64,000 nucleotides of DNA from a bacterium (GCA_037200965.1 JBBCGK010000001.1:433992-497991); one strand, 5' to 3'. Positions 1 through 20,852 are shown, numbered from the stretch's first letter. Program-made: numbers and translations. Notes: generated by a model not told the origin, from the sequence alone.

Positions 1-404
1 TGCAGCCCAGGGTATCAAGGGACATGCTGATCTGGCGTCATCCCCACCTTCCTCTCCCGTGAGGGAGCAGTCTCGCCTGACATATATAACAGGCAACGGG
101 GGTTGCGTTCGTTACCCCACTGAAGGGAACAGTTCAAACCACGAACTGACGACGACCATGCATCACCTGTCCAGCACCCTCGAAGGCTCCGTCCCTTTCG
201 GGTCGGATGCAGCTGGATTTCTAACCCTGGTAAGGTTCTTCGCTTGCCGACGAATTAAGCCACATGTTCCACCACTTGTGCGAGTCCCCGTCTATTCCTT
301 TGAGTTTTAAGCTTGCGCTCGTACTACCCAGGCGGCTCGCTTATCGCGTTAGCTTAGCCCCACAGAGGGTCGATACTCCGTAGAGCGAGCGAGCAACGTT
401 TAGG

Positions 405-436
<32 letters not shown>

Positions 437-698
437 ATCCCCTGGCTTTCGTGTGTGAGCGTCAGGAACGTACCAGTCTATTGCCTTCGCCTTTGGTGTT
501 CCCCATGATATCAACGGATTTCACCCCTACACCATGAGTTCCATAGACCTCTTACGCCCTCGAGCCGTACCGTTTCCCGTGCGGACCGGAAGTTGAGCTC
601 CCGGATTTTACGCGAGACTAATACGGCCGCCTTGACACCCTTTACGCCCAGTGATTCCGGATAATGCTCGGGGCCTCTGTATTACCGCTCCTGCTGGC

Positions 699-1633
699 CA
701 TCGTGTGTGGCATGCCGCACGGGCATGCCGCTCATATCGCTATGAGGATCGGACTATATCATCACCCACCAATACTGATGGGGCTCGGCGTGTAGTCTCT
801 GAGGGGTCAAAGTATATATTCCGATGATCAGAAGGAAGCTTGTACCTGAAACAGGGCAGGATGTAAGGGGCGACGGTTCTTGTAAACGCGTCGCGTCCTT
901 CTTTCCCGATATACAGTTTCGGATACCGCTTCCCGCGGCACAGCGACAAATAGGTTTTTGCCGCGATGCCGAATCTCTCTAATAACAGCGCTTGCAGTCG
1001 CTTCACCTCCGATTCCGTGAAAGAATCAGTACTGATGTGGTACGCATAATGGGATTTTGCTCGATAATCGAGCCTCCCATCATCCATGAACCACACCGCG
1101 AGCGTGAGCGGCGACCGGAACAATTCGGTGATATTTCCAGGAACGACCTTCTCGCGTCCCGCGTAGAAGATTTTGCGCATGTCTTCGAGGTTCTCGAAGA
1201 AACGCGTTCCGAAATACCACTGTTTCGTATCCGGTCTTTGCTTCGGAGGAGTTTTGACGAGATGCGCGAAGTGACTATAAAGCCACACTACATACTCCTT
1301 TCGTTCCTCCGATTGCTTTACCTGCAATCGGGTGCCTCGATAGCCGTTAAACTCGAGATTTCCATCTCCGAGCATGAGGCCTACGAGCACATCCCGTTGT
1401 TGCTTCGAGAGCGCACAGATCATCTTCACAATTATACTCGACTTCCCTGCTGATTGTCTCTTGGGATCTGATTTTGATTTCAAAGAAATCTAAACCAGAC
1501 GCAGTCCACAAGAGAGTTCCAGCATATAGCCAAGTTTTCGATCTCGATTTCTCGAGAAAGCTGCACGCGGTAACGAACGGTTCGTGAGAACCGTTCGATT
1601 TGCTCCAATGCGCAGAGCCACCTGCGCACGTGT
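699..1633 (-). mobile_element. Group-I-like intron in 16S rRNA (~935 nt) inserted inside the 515F universal primer site (about E. coli position 516)
   Basis: rRNA exon sequence ...CTAACTCTGT | intron | GCCAGCAGGAGCGGTAATAC. The non-rRNA sequence between contains a LAGLIDADG ORF and shares conserved blocks (ATCGGACTATATC, CGGCGTGTAGTCTCTGAGG, CTTCCCTGCTGATTG) with the 23S introns. Confidence 0.7.
740..1483 (-). CDS. LAGLIDADG homing endonuclease encoded in the 16S intron
   Basis: Motif LVGLMLGDGNL near the N-terminus and a typical LAGLIDADG length. The ORF lies entirely inside rRNA-interrupting sequence. The true start may be the internal Met at ~1423. Confidence 0.75.
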   Translation of the reverse strand: MKSKSDPKRQSAGKSSIIVKMICALSKQQRDVLVGLMLGDGNLEFNGYRGTRLQVKQSEERKEYVVWLYSHFAHLVKTPPKQRPDTKQWYFGTRFFENLEDMRKIFYAGREKVVPGNITELFRSPLTLAVWFMDDGRLDYRAKSHYAYHISTDSFTESEVKRLQALLLERFGIAAKTYLSLCRGKRYPKLYIGKEGRDAFTRTVAPYILPCFRYKLPSDHRNIYFDPSETTRRAPSVLVGDDIVRSS

Positions 1634-2223
1634 ACAGAGTTAGGAGCCCCTTATTCCCCGGGTACCGTCAATTACTTCGTCCCCGGGAAAAGCTGTTTAC
1701 GTACCTAAGCACTTCGTCCAGCACGCGGCGTCGCTCCGTCAGGCTTGCGCCCATTGCGGAATATTCTCGTCTGCGGCCTCCCGTAGGAGTATGGGCCGTA
1801 TCTCAGTCCCATCGGTGGGGGTCAGCCTCTCAGCTCCCCTAAACGTCGTAGCCTTGGTGAGCCATTACCTCACCAACTAGCTGATATTACGCAGGTGACT
1901 CCCGGAGCAATAAATCTTTACTCTCGCGAGACCATCGGGAATTACCCAACCTTTCGGCTGGCTATGCCCGACTCCGGGGGATCTCCCTGCGCGTTACTAC
2001 CTCGTTCGCCACTGCCCTTGCGGGCCGTTCGACTTGCATGACTTATCCACGCCGCCAGCATTCATCCTGAGCTAGGATCAAACTCTCATTAAGAATAGGC
2101 GGAACAAAACAAAACATAACTTACAGGTTTTCTTGCACCCCCAAGACCGTGCCGGTCCTGGGGACTTTATTCGTATGTCAGAGAGCAAATAAAACCGGCC
2201 CCCTGTGGGGCAGGTAAAGCCAT

Positions 2224-2250
2224 ACTATAGGAGGGCGGGAGGGGCGTCAA
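2224..2250 (-). promoter_or_regulatory. Putative sigma70-type promoter upstream of 16S (TTGACG -15 nt- TATAGT on the minus strand)
   Basis: Reverse complement of 2224-2250 reads TTGACGcccctcccgccctccTATAGT, ~140-170 nt upstream of the 16S 5' end. Spacer length is suboptimal. Confidence 0.25.
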
Positions 2251-7504: not shown

Positions 7505-7804
7505 TTATTCAAAAAGATCGGCATGGGTGCCGGTGCGGTGGAGGATAATACTGGATTCCGTGACGGCATAGACGAGGAGCCAGTCGGGTTCGATATGGCA
7601 TTCGTCGGTTCCTTTCCACTCCCCTTGAAGGGGGTGAGGCTTGTAGTCCGGGGGAAGGCTGCCTTGAGCCGCAAGCAAGCGCGTGACGGCCACCATCTTC
7701 TCTCGATCTTTCCCCCGTTTTAACTGACGCCGGATATCTTTCTTGAACCGGCTTGTTTGAAGAAGAATCCTCATGCGCGCATAGCGCGCAACTCCTTCTC
7801 CCAT
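7505..7804 (-). CDS. yafQ: Type II toxin YafQ (RelE/ParE superfamily mRNA interferase)
   Basis: DYKPHPLQGEWKGTDECHIEPDWLLVY...HRTGTHADLF closely matches the YafQ signature. Confidence 0.75.
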   Translation of the reverse strand: MGEGVARYARMRILLQTSRFKKDIRRQLKRGKDREKMVAVTRLLAAQGSLPPDYKPHPLQGEWKGTDECHIEPDWLLVYAVTESSIILHRTGTHADLFE

Positions 7805-8040
7805 GCATCGAACGATTTCGGCTTCAGCAGCCCGCGGCCCTTACGGGCATCGCGGATGACTTTTGCGGTTTCGGCGTTGGGGATATTGGTACTGAACGGG
7901 AGTCCTTGGTTGAGGGTTACTTGCGTATAGAAGAGCGTAACGGCATCCGTCGGGGAGAGGCCGATTCTCGAAAGCACCGCCTCTCCCCTGCGCTTGAGCG
8001 AGGGTTCCATGCGGGCTCGTACCGTTGCGGTTTTTGCCAT
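7771..8040 (-). CDS. dinJ: Type II antitoxin DinJ (RelB family)
   Basis: VRARMEPSLKRRGEAVLSRIGLSPTDAV...GLPFSTNIPNAETAKVIRDARKG matches DinJ. Overlaps the yafQ start by ~34 nt. Confidence 0.7.
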   Translation of the reverse strand: MAKTATVRARMEPSLKRRGEAVLSRIGLSPTDAVTLFYTQVTLNQGLPFSTNIPNAETAKVIRDARKGRGLLKPKSFDAWEKELRAMRA

Positions 8041-8078
8041 ATGCGCAGTGTAGCCCATTTGGGCTACACTTGCAAATC

Positions 8079-8891
8079 CTAAGAGTATTCGGCGAGCTCG
8101 ATAACGTTCTCAAACAGTTTCGCAACGGCGACCGGACCCACTCCTCCCGGGACGGGCGTAAAAAGAGAACATTTTTCGGCACCCGCCGGATCGGCATCTC
8201 CCCTTATAACGCCGCCGGACTCGGAGGTGCCCGCATCGATAAGGATGACTCCCTCCTTGATTATCTCAGGCTTCACAAGCCCCGCGGAACCCGCGCCCGC
8301 GACGATAATGTCCGCGCCGGAAAGCATGCGCGCGAGCTCTTCCGGAGCCGTTTCGATGGTCGCTATGGAAACGTCCGCACCTTGGCGGTTAAGCCATGTC
8401 GCAACCGGAGCGCCGACCAGCCAGCCATTCCCTATGACTACAGCCTTCTTCCCCGCTATCGATACGCCCCTCACTATTTCCGCGACCGCGCCGACGACCG
8501 GCGGCAGGAGCGCGCCGTCTTCTCCTCTTTCAAACCGCGCCCGGGCCGCGGACGAAAGCACGTCAGCGTCTTTTTCCACAGGAATCGCGTCGAGTACCGC
8601 CTGCGTATCGACCGTGGCCGGAAGCGGAAGCTGTACGATGAGCGCGTCTTCCGTAGCGGCCGTGACCGCGGCGATGAGCTCGGTTGTGGTCGCGGTCTCC
8701 GGGAGCGTCTGCACGATCATCCCGATACCGGCCTCCGCGGCGCGCTTTTCTTTGATCTTAAGATACGACGCCGTCGCGGCATTGCCCCCGCAGGCAACCA
8801 CGCGAAGCGTCGGCATGCGTCCGAGCTGTTCGGAACGCGCTCTGGCGCGCGAGAGTATATCCGCTGCGAGTCTCTTTCCGTCGAGAATCAT
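8079..8891 (-). CDS. folD: Bifunctional methylene-THF dehydrogenase/cyclohydrolase FolD
   Basis: MILDGKRLAADIL...LPLP...GKKAVVIGNG..VG.PVA...TPVPGGVGP. Start taken at the internal Met; the six-frame ORF extends spuriously upstream. Confidence 0.8.
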   Translation of the reverse strand: MILDGKRLAADILSRARARSEQLGRMPTLRVVACGGNAATASYLKIKEKRAAEAGIGMIVQTLPETATTTELIAAVTAATEDALIVQLPLPATVDTQAVLDAIPVEKDADVLSSAARARFERGEDGALLPPVVGAVAEIVRGVSIAGKKAVVIGNGWLVGAPVATWLNRQGADVSIATIETAPEELARMLSGADIIVAGAGSAGLVKPEIIKEGVILIDAGTSESGGVIRGDADPAGAEKCSLFTPVPGGVGPVAVAKLFENVIELAEYS

Positions 8892-19691: not shown

Positions 19692-20852
19692 CTGCGTGAT
19701 ATTTAGCCTTACCGGTTAGTTCCGGCAGATTCATTCGAGCTATTCGTGTCTCGAACTACTCAGGAACGGAAGCACAAGAGAGATCTCTATTTCGCGTACG
19801 GGGCCATTACCCTCTGGGGCGCTGCTTCCCAGCAGCTTCCGCTATAGAGACCTTTTGTAACTCCTGCCGTATAAATACGGCGCTTCCGCCCTACAACCCC
19901 GAAGATCGAAACCTTCGGTTTGGGCTCTTCCCGTTTCGCTCGCCGCTACTAAGGGAATCGCGAGAGACGTGTTCCACCCCCTCGACGAATCGAGGAGCCG
20001 GAACACGGCTCGCTGTTGTTTTCTATTCCTCCGGGTACTGAGATGTTTCACTTCCCCGGGTACGCTTCCATCCTCTGTCGAGGCGGATTCCCGATATACG
20101 GGAGGGTTTCCCCATTCGGAAATCTTCGGATCAAAGGCTATAAGCCGCCTCCCCGAAGCATATCGCTGGCTGATCGCGTCCTTCATCGCTCACGCAAGCC
20201 TAGGCATCCACCGTGCACCCTTATGTCTCCTGTGCGGAGATCTGTTCACCACAATCTGATAGCACTTGCATTTTGCTGACCGCACGGGCTTAGCCCATAC
20301 GGTTTTGCTTACCATCTATACGTATTCGTATGTCAAAGGGCGCACTATCCACGCGATTTTTCCGACTAAAAAACCGCTCAGAGGAGCGGTCGCATTTGCA
20401 TGCAAGGCCTTCCGGCCTTTATCCGCTACTCGTTGTTAGGGTTTTTCGGGTCGGTATCACGTGTAGGGAGAGTATAGGGGAGGGGGCAAAGGCTGTCAAC
20501 AAGGGCATGAGTGGGTGGTTTATAAGGTCCGCCCGCAGATTTGACAAGAATATAGAACTAGTCCATAGTTATATACGAAACAGTGGAGAGTCGGCCTAAA
20601 GGCCGATATGCTCATATGAAGCCAGGAGTTACGCCTCAGATGAAGGAAACAACCAGGACTGCTAAGGAGCGGCGCGAGCGGTCAAGAATTGCCATGTTGA
20701 TTGTCGGCATTCCTGTTATTTCGATCGTTCTGGCACTGATCGGGTTAGGGGTTCTTCTCTTGCATGGGCCCTTTTGACGGACTGATGTGTTGGGAGTGCG
20801 AAGCGAGCAATCGCTTCCCTCCCTGCCCATCGGTTTTTGTTTTTATAGACTA

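What the first reader, a model, noticed from the sequence alone, without database searches (positions are those of the whole stretch)
699..1633. 16S rRNA intron sits inside the universal 515F primer site and encodes a LAGLIDADG endonuclease
The exon junction is ...CTAACTCTGT | ~935-nt intron | GCCAGCAGGAGCGGTAATAC..., which is within GTGCCAGCMGCCGCGGTAA. The residual site itself has two mismatches (GGAGCGG).

Intron-interrupted and divergent primer sites are known to make CPR lineages invisible to amplicon surveys. This is a clean example, with the endonuclease ORF carrying a canonical LVGLMLGDGNL motif.
Basis: partly seen in the sequence, partly recalled or inferred. Interest (0 to 1): 0.55.

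Follow-up and report, generated by a model that had tools for sequence, protein, structure and literature searches.

The report
Mobile group I intron in 16S rRNA
A 935-base self-splicing-type (group I) intron carrying an I-SceI-like homing endonuclease gene interrupts the 16S rRNA gene of a CPR/Patescibacteria bacterium between positions 516 and 517; it is real and well formed, but it belongs to an intron class already catalogued across this phylum.

Summary
The 16S gene lies on the minus strand and is split exactly at E. coli U516|G517 by a 935-nt insert (window 1633..699). The two bases that differ from the 515F primer (C525G, C526A) are real.

The insert is a group I intron. It has the conserved core sequence elements (P, Q, R and S), a U at the 5' splice site and a terminal G. 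Twenty related introns sit at the same site. Helices P1, P3, P4 and P6 show compensatory changes across them (94.5% paired; 14 pairs changed on both sides; 0/500 shuffles reach this). Rfam scores the window copy below threshold (26.5 bits), because a 638-nt ORF sits in the P6 loop. An ORF-less homologue scores 75.6 bits.

The 227-aa ORF is an intact, two-motif LAGLIDADG_2 enzyme of the I-SceI family.

Refinements:
- The primer mismatches are compensated at 505/506, which preserves the 530-loop pseudoknot.
- 17 of the 19 primer bases lie in the 3' exon, so the intron itself does not block 515F-806R.
- A conserved TATAAT-like box 5-7 nt before the start codon suggests a leaderless mRNA made from a promoter inside the intron.

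This is a known kind (Tsurumaki 2024). Splicing was not tested.

The parts
1634..2093 (-). 16S rRNA 5' exon (E. coli positions 1-516)
   Evidence: cmscan RF00177, 386 bits. Ends ...CUAACUCUGU at 1634.
699..1633 (-). Group I intron, 935 nt, inserted at U516|G517
   Evidence: Gap in the SSU model alignment. Sub-threshold RF00028 hit at 730-902. Core anchors shared with 20 homologous introns. Covariation.
1..698 (-). 16S rRNA 3' exon (from G517; runs off the window start)
   Evidence: cmscan RF00177, 585 bits. Starts GCCAGCAGGAGCGGUAAUAC.
1629..1637 (-). P1 5' strand: exon CUGU (1637..1634, with U516 as the wobble U) plus intron nt 1-5 ACACG
   Evidence: Pairs with 1569..1561. Exon/guide covariation across 21 introns.
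1561..1569 (-). Internal guide sequence / P1 3' strand, CGCGU-GCAG (GCAG = 1564..1561)
   Evidence: Lies 24 nt before P3, the same distance (24-28 nt) as in 15 of the 20 relatives. GCAG, GCGG and GCGA track exon CUGU, CCGU and UCGU. Intron nt +1 pairs with the base 5' of the guide: A-U in 8, G-C in 12, G-U in 1.
1621..1625 (-). Alternative guide-like GCAGG (5 bp possible with UCUGU)
   Evidence: Found by complementarity. Also present in L004 but absent from the close relatives L003, L045 and L006, so less likely.
1542..1557 (-). P2 hairpin UCUCGA-GAAA-UCGAGA
   Evidence: Local fold. The equivalent helix aligns to the Rfam model in L045.
1529..1534 (-). P3 5' strand CUUGGC
   Evidence: Pairs with GCCGAG at 789..784. 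Four of 6 pairs show two-sided changes across relatives; 98.4% paired.
1519..1528 (-). P element: J3/4 and P4 5' strand (UAUA-UGCUGG)
   Evidence: Anchor present in all 21 introns. P4 is 100% paired, with U-A replaced by G-C in 4 sequences.
1459..1515 (-). P5 extended hairpin domain
   Evidence: Local fold, -24.8 kcal/mol.
1443..1455 (-). Q element AAUCAGCAGGGAA (J5/4, P4 3' strand, start of P6)
   Evidence: Anchor in all 21 introns.
1437..1446 (-). P6 5' strand (GG..GUCGAG); the ORF is inserted in the P6 loop
   Evidence: Pairs with 811..804. Four of 6 P6 pairs change on both sides. The ORF-less L045 closes P6 with a 4-nt loop.
1431..1460 (-). Promoter-like site GAGACA-18-TATAAT (-10 box at 1436..1431, 7 nt before the ATG)
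   Evidence: Consensus scan, 10/12 matches. A -10-like hexamer lies 5-7 nt before the start codon in 16/17 relatives, against a shuffle mean of 0.6. Function is inferred.
740..1423 (-). Homing endonuclease ORF, 227 aa, LAGLIDADG_2 / I-SceI family. Motifs at 1387..1355 and 1102..1070. Stop UAG 742..740 lies inside P9.
   Evidence: Pfam PF03161, 113 bits. I-SceI E = 5e-16, with D20 and D115 aligned to catalytic D44 and D145. 285 homologues.
803..816 (-). P6 3' strand (UAUACUUUGACCCC)
792..804 (-). R element CCUCAGAGACUAC (J6/7 and P7 5' strand with bulged A and the G of the guanosine-binding pair)
   Evidence: Aligned to the Rfam model. Invariant in 21 introns.
784..789 (-). P3 3' strand GCCGAG
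765..782 (-). P8 hairpin
   Evidence: Local fold. Aligned to the Rfam model. Every relative has a hairpin-forming segment here.
751..760 (-). S element GAUAUAGUCC (J8/7 and P7 3' strand)
709..746 (-). P9 hairpin with GCGA loop (746..731) and a second 3' hairpin (729..709)
   Evidence: Local fold. P9 aligned to the Rfam model.
699..699 (-). Terminal G of the intron (omega G)
   Evidence: Sequence ...CACGAUG|GCCAGC.
682..698 (-). The 17 bases of the 515F site that lie in the 3' exon, with G525 and A526 instead of C and C
   Evidence: Partners U505 and C506 at 1645 and 1644 keep the 505-507/524-526 pseudoknot paired.

Best explanation
This is a mobile group I intron in the single-copy-type 16S rRNA gene of a Parcubacteria/Kaiserbacteria-like CPR bacterium, inserted at U516|G517 (site 'S516').

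Shown by sequence and comparison:
- The RNA has a complete group I core (P1-P9).
- The 5' exon end CUGU pairs with an internal guide GCAG, forming the U516-G wobble.
- P7 carries the guanosine-binding-site sequence.
- The intron ends in G.

Inferred from how group I introns work: after transcription the intron removes itself from pre-16S rRNA by two transesterifications started by a free guanosine. This rejoins U516 to G517 and restores the universally conserved 530 loop.

The loop of P6 carries a 227-aa ORF for a monomeric, two-motif LAGLIDADG enzyme of the I-SceI family. Both catalytic aspartates are present. The last ~25 codons read through P6', P7, P3', P8 and into P9.

Also inferred: the enzyme cuts intron-less 16S rDNA at the ~20-bp CTAACTCTGT|GCCAGCAGGAGC site, and repair copies the intron in (homing). 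The ORF is probably transcribed on its own from a promoter inside the intron (TATAAT 7 nt before the ATG) as a leaderless mRNA.
For: Position: SSU model alignment.

Group I identity:
- The R and S elements align to RF00028.
- All four core anchors occur in the same order in 21 introns at this site.
- Named structure P1/P3/P4/P6/P7: 94.5% of cells paired versus 28-39% when partners are slid. Fourteen pairs change on both sides. 0/500 shuffles reach the observed value.
- The ORF-less homologue L045 sits at the same site, is 83% identical over the ribozyme part, and passes Rfam's gathering score (75.6 vs 50 bits).

Guide sequence: it lies at a constant distance from P3 and covaries with exon sequence.

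Enzyme:
- PF03161, 1.5e-32.
- I-SceI 5e-16, with D44 and D145 aligned to D20 and D115.
- D114 and D115 are invariant and D20 is nearly invariant in 29 homologues.

Mobility cycle: intact, degenerate and ORF-less versions all occur at the same site in different CPR lineages. This matches PMC11270868.

Functional exons: the 530-loop pseudoknot is kept paired by compensatory changes.

Internal promoter.
Against: - Rfam's group I model does not reach its gathering score on the window copy itself (26.5 bits). It is missed entirely at the default threshold.
- P1 in this copy is short (4 bp plus an interrupted extension), and P10 has only about 2 bp. A second guide-like GCAGG exists near the 5' end.
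- The guide positions were chosen partly by complementarity, so the outer P1 columns are not an independent test.
- No RNA data were available. Splicing, exon ligation, endonuclease activity and the transcription start are all unobserved.
- The -35-like hexamer is not conserved among relatives.
Confidence: 0.85

Rival explanations
1. It is a group I intron that no longer self-splices efficiently. It depends on a protein helper for removal, either its own LAGLIDADG protein acting as a maturase or a host factor.
For: P1 and P10 are weak in this copy. The clade has lost the P7.1/P7.2-type insert that most relatives carry between P7 and P3' ('P7-S' distances 33-44 versus 69-116 nt). A ~60-nt branched insert sits in the P1 loop. 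From general knowledge, some LAGLIDADG proteins of organellar introns are maturases.
Against: The catalytic core is fully conserved and covarying. Both catalytic aspartates of the endonuclease are retained. The ORF-less homologue L045 persists without any intron-encoded protein.
Confidence: 0.2
2. It is an intervening sequence that is cut out, for example by RNase III, without exon ligation, leaving a fragmented 16S rRNA. Alternatively it is retained in the mature rRNA.
For: Unligated intervening sequences exist in bacterial 23S genes and are suspected for some CPR insertions (PMC11270868). No RNA data are available here.
Against: The insert has a group I core, a U-G splice-site pair and a terminal G. 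It splits the 530 loop, which is universally conserved and functionally essential, and the loop's pseudoknot is maintained by compensation. A 935-nt insertion or a break there is hard to reconcile with that. A review reports that metatranscriptomes support removal of such CPR insertions (PMC9698310).
Confidence: 0.05
3. The interrupted 16S gene is an inactive copy, or the insert is an assembly chimera.
For: Only part of one genome was examined. The 16S gene is not linked to the 23S-5S genes.
Against: The exons score 386 and 585+ bits with intact helices. The same sequence is assembled independently in L002. Homologous introns lie at the same site in 20 other genomes. The ORF is intact. CPR genomes usually have a single 16S copy (PMC11270868).
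Confidence: 0.03

Closest known systems
rRNA insertion sequences of CPR bacteria: group I introns encoding LAGLIDADG_2 proteins in 16S rRNA genes (Tsurumaki et al. 2024, PMC11270868; first noted by Brown et al. 2015 as cited in PMC9698310)
   Same: CPR host. Insertion in a highly conserved 16S region. Group-I-like RNA with a ~210-aa LAGLIDADG_2 ORF. ORF-containing, degenerate and ORF-less versions at one site, scattered over the host phylogeny. Several insertions per rRNA gene.
   Different: That survey classed introns with the Rfam model, which misses this copy at threshold. Its numbered sites (16IS1-10) are given only in figures, so I could not confirm which number corresponds to 516/517. 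It calls LAGLIDADG_2 proteins 'single-domain' by Pfam count, whereas this protein has two LAGLIDADG motifs like I-SceI.
I-SceI (yeast mitochondrial 21S rRNA omega-intron endonuclease; PDB 1R7M)
   Same: Best solved-structure match (E = 5e-16 over residues 5-199). Same Pfam family, PF03161. Two LAGLIDADG motifs with both catalytic Asp aligned. Encoded inside a group I intron of an rRNA gene.
   Different: The host gene is the large-subunit rRNA of a mitochondrion. The target sequence is unrelated. Sequence similarity is only remote (phmmer E = 5e-16 over residues 5-199).
Eukaryotic nuclear S516 group I introns (myxomycetes, Naegleria Nae.S516, fungi, algae; PMC9223047, PMC1464144)
   Same: Identical insertion point in the small-subunit rRNA (after E. 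coli U516). Group I ribozyme with a U-G splice-site pair. Some carry homing endonuclease genes in peripheral loops, including P6.
   Different: Those are subgroup IC1 or IE and encode His-Cys box enzymes, some with lariat-capping ribozymes or spliceosomal introns. This one encodes a LAGLIDADG_2 enzyme, and many relatives have a P7.1/P7.2-type insert typical of subgroup IA. Sharing the site most likely reflects independent colonisation of the same conserved target.
[quoted passage not shown] 2012, cited in PMC13011429)
   Same: Bacterial 16S group I introns, some with LAGLIDADG ORFs, that lengthen or prevent amplicons.
   Different: Different phylum. From my own recollection, different insertion sites; I did not check this.

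Membership tests
Group I intron (Rfam RF00028) | Score at or above the curated gathering threshold of the covariance model | tested here: inconclusive
   The window copy scores 26.5 bits against a threshold of 50. The model cannot bridge the 638-nt ORF in P6. The ORF-less homologue L045, at the same site and 83% identical in the ribozyme part, scores 75.6 bits.
Group I intron (Rfam RF00028) | Conserved core: P3-P4-P6 and P7-P3'-P8 with P, Q, R and S sequence elements in order, supported by covariation | tested here: met
   Anchors are present in all 21 introns. 94.5% of cells are paired, 14 pairs have two-sided changes, and 0/500 shuffles reach this. Slid controls give 28-39%.
Group I intron (Rfam RF00028) | 5' splice site after a U that forms a U-G wobble with an internal guide sequence (P1) | tested here: met
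   U516 pairs with the G of GCAG (1564). U-G occurs in 21/21 introns, and the next three pairs covary with the exon. Caveat: guide positions were picked partly by complementarity.
Group I intron (Rfam RF00028) | Terminal G and a guanosine-binding G-C pair next to a bulged A in P7 | tested here: met
   The intron ends ...GAUG (699). P7 is GAGACUA/UAGUCC with a bulged A, invariant in 21 introns. Fifteen of 21 relatives end in G; 5 of the other 6 have a 1-nt junction ambiguity.
Group I intron (Rfam RF00028) | Guanosine-dependent self-splicing with exon ligation | not testable with these tools
   No RNA data and no experiment.
LAGLIDADG homing endonuclease, I-SceI type (Pfam PF03161) | Pfam gathering score | tested here: met
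   113.3 bits against a cut-off of 25, covering 163 of 168 profile positions.
LAGLIDADG homing endonuclease, I-SceI type (Pfam PF03161) | Two LAGLIDADG helices, each ending in a catalytic acidic residue | tested here: met
   LVGLMLGD20G and LAVWFMDD115G align with I-SceI D44 and D145. These residues are invariant or nearly invariant in 29 homologues.
LAGLIDADG homing endonuclease, I-SceI type (Pfam PF03161) | Site-specific double-strand cleavage of the intron-less allele | not testable with these tools
   Only a different CPR enzyme, I-ShaI, has been assayed (PMC11270868).
CPR rRNA insertion sequences (Tsurumaki 2024) | Host is a CPR/Patescibacteria genome | tested here: met
   16S exons are 87-93% identical to a Candidatus Kaiserbacteria MAG (L003) and to L045. 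The nearest protein homologues come from Kaiserbacteria and Parcubacteria MAGs. The source contig is 960 kb.
CPR rRNA insertion sequences (Tsurumaki 2024) | Corresponds to one of the numbered frequent sites (16IS4-7 or 16IS10 for group I introns; LAGLIDADG_2 at 16IS5 and 16IS10) | not testable with these tools
   Site coordinates appear only in figure images. 16IS10 is position 1498, so 16IS5 is the likely match, but this is unverified.
Eukaryotic nuclear S516 introns | Insertion after SSU position 516 | tested here: met
Eukaryotic nuclear S516 introns | His-Cys box endonuclease and an IC1 or IE ribozyme | tested here: not met
   The ORF is LAGLIDADG_2. Relatives carry a P7.1/P7.2-type insert. 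The subgroup was not formally assigned. This intron is not filed as a member.

The most novel reading that the evidence does not exclude
The endonuclease gene is a self-contained expression cassette inside the ribozyme. A -10 box is conserved 5-7 nt upstream of the start codon in 16 of 17 relatives. In the window copy a -35-like hexamer overlaps the ribozyme's P5'/J5/4 region. Together these would drive transcription of a leaderless mRNA that begins at the AUG, so the protein is made independently of the highly structured, untranslated pre-rRNA. The same ribozyme family at the same site carries a distant (35% identical) LAGLIDADG_2 gene in P9 instead of P6. This suggests the cassette moves independently of the intron.
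Probability: 0.4. Interest if true: 0.45.

Novelty: new member of a known kind. Interest (0 to 1): 0.27.

Why it matters
For surveys, it is a concrete, fully dissected case of why CPR 16S genes are under-detected.
- Amplicons spanning position 516 grow by 935 bp.
- A second insertion near position 1400, outside the window, adds about 900 bp more to full-length amplicons.
- 515F also meets two internal mismatches.
- Those mismatches are functionally constrained. They are compensated in the 530-loop pseudoknot, so they are stable lineage markers that degenerate primers could target.

For annotation, the standard Rfam model misses ORF-bearing copies of this intron family, so published counts of 'group I' versus 'unclassified' CPR insertions are probably underestimates.

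For biology, the conserved TATAAT-N6-ATG arrangement offers a testable answer to how a protein gene buried in an rRNA intron gets expressed in bacteria.

None of this changes the general picture already published for CPR rRNA introns.

Tried and rejected
- Rfam at gathering threshold over the whole window found no group I hit in this insert. The relaxed search was needed.
- Minimum-free-energy folding of the ORF-deleted intron did not recover P3/P7 (a pseudoknot) and gave competing pairings in the 5' 73 nt. I relied on comparative analysis instead.
- The guide-like GCAGG at 1625..1621 was my first P1 candidate. I demoted it because L003, L045 and L006 lack it, while GCAG at 1564..1561 is at the conserved distance from P3 and covaries.
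- My first automatic P3' assignment was out of register for introns with an extra J3/4 base. It was redone with explicit anchors.
- Brown et al. 2015 is not held in the library. The numbered insertion sites of Tsurumaki 2024 could not be read because they are figure images.
- A crude survey of -10-like boxes before first ATGs of long ORFs in the window is contaminated by spurious ORFs and uncertain starts. It gives only anecdotal support for leaderless genes.
- Archaeal bulge-helix-bulge and group II readings were considered and dropped. The core is group I. Weak group II hits (E ~0.5) belong to the other insertion, outside the window.
- I did not run structure prediction of the protein, because the sequence match to I-SceI was already decisive.

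Full report
**1. What is in the sequence**

The bacterial SSU rRNA covariance model matches the minus strand in two pieces. One is 2093..~1634 (386 bits) and the other is 698..1 (585 bits), which is cut by the window edge. Re-searching 600-1750 gave the same picture.

Read as RNA, the gene runs ...GGGGCUCCUAACUCUGU(1634), then 935 nt (1633..699), then (698)GCCAGCAGGAGCGGUAAUACAGAGG. Alignment to the model puts the break between E. coli U516 and G517. That is between the second and third bases of primer 515F. The parse is unique here, because the insert begins with A and ends with G.

An independently assembled Logan contig (L002) has the same ORF and 3' junction. The window comes from a 960-kb contig of assembly GCA_037975565.1.

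**2. The insert is a group I intron**

At Rfam's curated threshold nothing is reported for the insert. With relaxed thresholds, RF00028 aligns to 730-902 at 26.5 bits. It matches the classical R element (UCAGAGACUACACG), P8, the S element (GAUAUAGUCC) and P9.

The low score has a simple cause: a 638-nt ORF sits in the loop of P6.

I collected relatives by searching GTDB genomes with an alignment of the encoded protein.
- Every locus whose protein is at least 43% identical and whose 3' flank is on the contig (17 loci, L003-L020, excluding L012) carries its gene immediately upstream of GCCAGCAG..GCGGUAAUAC.
- Three more distant loci (L029, L030, L036) do the same.
- Each of these has an 864-961-nt insert after CUAAC...GU, the same site.
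- L045 has a 275-nt ORF-less insert at the same site.

All 21 introns (L005 was omitted as a near-duplicate of L004) share four anchors in the same order: AUAUGC(U/G)GG, AAUC(A/C)GCAGGGAA, CAGAGACU and (G/A)AUAGUCC.

L045 passes Rfam's gathering score (75.6 bits, E = 1.6e-19), with P2-P9 aligned. It is 83% identical to the window's ribozyme part.

**3. Covariation**

I cut register-fixed blocks for P1, P3, P4, P6 and P7 from the 21 introns (alignment A2). I then counted pairs for the named structure, written with P3 and P7 as a pseudoknot.

| Measure | Result |
|---|---|
| Cells forming standard pairs | 94.5% |
| Same, with 3' partners slid by 1-3 columns | 28-39% |
| Pairs changed on both sides | 14 of 31 |
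| Shuffles reaching the paired fraction, the two-sided changes or the covariation score | 0 of 500 |
| P3 pairs with two-sided changes (CUUGGC/GCCGAG, CUCAAC/GUUGAG, CUUAGC/GCUGAG, CUCUAC/GUGGAG) | 4 of 6 |
| P4 change | U-A to G-C in four sequences |
| P6 pairs with two-sided changes | 4 of 6 |
| P7 | Invariant, so uninformative |

**4. P1 and the splice sites**

In most relatives the guide sequence is obvious: UGGC-GCAGAG pairs with exon CUCUGU, and its UGGC pairs with 3' exon GCCA (P10).

The guide tracks the exon sequence:
- GCAG with CUGU
- GCGG with CCGU
- GCGA(G/GG) with (C)CUCGU
- GCGU with CACGU

The U516-G wobble is present in 21 of 21 introns.

A pair I did not use when choosing guide positions also covaries. 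This is intron nt +1 with the base just 5' of the guide: A-U in 8, G-C in 12 and G-U in 1.

The guide lies 24-28 nt before P3 in 16 of the 21 introns. In the window that places it at GCAG 1564..1561, 24 nt before P3. CGCGU (1569..1565) can pair with intron nt 1-5. P2 is the hairpin at 1557..1542.

This copy has only a 4-bp core P1 and about 2 bp of P10. It also has a ~60-nt branched insert in the P1 loop. A second guide-like GCAGG lies at 1625..1621, but the closest relatives lack it.

The intron's last base is G (699).

Under the same parse, 15 of 21 relatives end in G. In five of the other six the intron starts with G, so the junction is ambiguous by one base.

**5. The ORF**

From ATG 1423 to UAG 742..740 the minus strand encodes 227 aa (P0001 is the identical database protein).
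- It matches Pfam LAGLIDADG_2 at 113 bits.
- Among solved structures, its best match is I-SceI (E = 5e-16 over residues 5-199).
- It has two motifs, LVGLMLGD20GNL and LAVWFMDD115GRL. Their aspartates align with I-SceI D44 and D145.
- D114 and D115 are invariant and D20 is nearly invariant in 29 homologues.

It is therefore a monomeric, pseudo-dimeric enzyme rather than a single-motif homodimer.

The conserved domain ends at YKLP (residue 197). The last ~25 codons are simply the P6', P7, P3', P8 and P7' RNA read in frame, and the stop codon lies in P9. Most relatives stop just before the R element instead.

Several relatives have premature stops (L004, L006, L009, L018, L019, L030) and L045 has no ORF. 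This is the expected invasion-decay-loss cycle of homing endonuclease genes, and it matches what PMC11270868 reports for CPR insertions.

In L029, L030 and L036 the same ribozyme at the same site carries a LAGLIDADG_2 gene (about 35% identical) after the S element instead of in P6. The gene and the ribozyme therefore have partly separate histories.

**6. The primer site and the 530 loop**

The changes at 525 and 526 are matched by G505U and G506C. U505-A526, C506-G525 and C507-G524 all pair.

The 505-507/524-526 pseudoknot of the 530 loop is an established functional element of 16S rRNA (Powers and Noller 1991; cited from my own knowledge).

| Pair | Variants across the 21 host genes |
|---|---|
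| 506-525 | G-C in 13, C-G in 7, A-U in 1 |
| 505-526 | U-A in 17, G-C in 1, unpaired in 3 |

The 'divergent primer site' is therefore a constrained, compensated state.

Practical consequences:
- Only the first two primer bases are separated from the rest by the intron.
- The 17 3'-terminal bases lie in the 3' exon (698..682), and extension runs away from the intron.
- The 806R site (409-428) is a perfect match.
- A 515F-806R product would therefore have normal length. The handicap is 2 internal mismatches plus a 2-nt 5' flap, 4 of 19 bases on DNA.
- Amplicons that span 516/517 gain 935 bp.

**7. How the ORF may be expressed (inference)**

The promoter scan finds GAGACA-18-TATAAT at 1460..1431 on the minus strand. 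It ends 7 nt before the ATG.

In 16 of 17 relatives with the ORF in P6, a hexamer within one mismatch of TATAAT ends 5-7 nt before the start codon. Shuffling the same upstream segments gives a mean of 0.6 and a maximum of 5.

That spacing is what is expected if transcription starts at the A of the AUG, giving a leaderless mRNA.

Three neighbouring genes in the same genome show the same TAnnnT-N6-ATG arrangement (L083 7910, 9233, 9827). A few genes in the window do too (a crude survey).

The -35-like hexamer is not conserved. The relatives are phylogenetically related. The motif could instead be an RNA element of the P6 extension. I rate this reading at about 0.4.

**8. Comparison with what is known**

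CPR bacteria are known for rRNA insertions.
- 48% of 16S and 82% of 23S genes carry them.
- Over half are group-I-like, and most ORFs are LAGLIDADG.
- LAGLIDADG_2 proteins of about 210 aa occur at two 16S sites.
- ORF-bearing and ORF-less versions share the same sites (PMC11270868).
- Reviews state that these insertions, together with primer mismatches, hinder amplicon detection (PMC9698310).

The site itself, S516, is a classic group I site in eukaryotic nuclear SSU rDNA. Those introns are subgroup IC1 or IE and encode His-Cys box enzymes (PMC9223047). Here the enzyme family differs, and many relatives have a P7.1/P7.2-type insert between P7 and P3'. I therefore read the shared site as independent use of the same conserved target.

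The host's 16S exons are 87-93% identical to a Kaiserbacteria MAG (L003) and to L045.

**9. Verdict**

The finding is correct and cleanly documented, but it is a new member of a known kind. Splicing, cleavage and the transcription start remain untested.

Noticed in passing
L083 ~7588-8487 (same contig, beyond the window's left edge): The same 16S gene has a second ~900-nt insertion at about E. coli 1399/1400 (GUACUCAC | ... | CGCCCGUCA). It encodes a 188-aa LAGLIDADG_1 protein (L083 7910-8476; Pfam 2.1e-16). Only weak group II D1-D4 hits were found (E ~0.4-0.6). This fits the 'position 1400, group-II-like, LAGLIDADG_1' class of PMC11270868.
   Followed up: partly
L083 ~8560-8610 (outside the window): After helix 45, the 16S 3' end reads GGAACAUAUCCAAUUGG instead of GGAUCACCUCCUUA. 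The canonical CCUCC anti-Shine-Dalgarno appears to be missing. This would fit frequent leaderless-type starts (TAnnnT-N6-ATG) in this genome.
   Followed up: partly
window 15891-20235 (-): The 23S rRNA gene is 4345 nt against a 2925-nt model. It contains an ORF-less group I intron that passes Rfam's threshold (16313-16529, 67.6 bits). It also has a 179-aa LAGLIDADG_1 ORF (17187-17726, Pfam 3.8e-21) in another insertion. The insertion sites were not mapped.
   Followed up: partly
window 1-20235 (-): The rRNA genes are not in one operon. 23S (20235..15891) and 5S (14869..14762) are followed by about 12.7 kb of other sequence before the 16S gene (2093..1) on the same strand. A promoter-like TTGACG-17-TAGTAT lies at 2250..2222, just upstream of the 16S 5' end.
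   Followed up: no
L029, L030, L036 (introns at the same 16S site): These have the same ribozyme core and insertion site, but the LAGLIDADG_2 gene (about 35% identical) lies after the S element (P9 region) instead of in P6. The endonuclease gene has apparently entered this intron family at least twice, or has moved within it.
   Followed up: partly
L007-L011, L013-L020, L030, L036 versus window, L003, L004, L006, L029, L045: Most relatives have 69-116 nt between the R and S elements, a P7.1/P7.2-type insert. The window's clade and L029 have only 33-44 nt (CAGAGACUACACGCCGAG), so a peripheral domain has been lost there.
   Followed up: no
L004, L006, L007, L009, L010, L020 (3' exons): Alignment of their 3' exons to the window's stops after about 275 nt. 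This suggests a further insertion near 16S position ~790 in those genomes that the window's gene lacks.
   Followed up: no
L006-L008, L013, L019 ('Saccharibacteria'), L015 ('Nanoarchaeota'), L029 ('Gammaproteobacteria'): Several MAG records that carry this intron have taxon labels that look unlikely. One is a 1.2-kb contig binned as Nanoarchaeota. PMC11270868 found no such introns in Saccharibacteria. These may be mis-binned contigs or coarse automatic labels.
   Followed up: no
source record: The 960-kb contig is numbered JBBCBH010010897 in assembly GCA_037975565.1. That assembly therefore has more than ten thousand contigs, so the CPR genome may be a passenger in a metagenome or in a host organism's assembly. 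The organism name was not available.
   Followed up: no
L083 9105-9177 (outside the window): A tRNA gene (74.9 bits) follows the 16S 3' end by about 500 nt.
   Followed up: no
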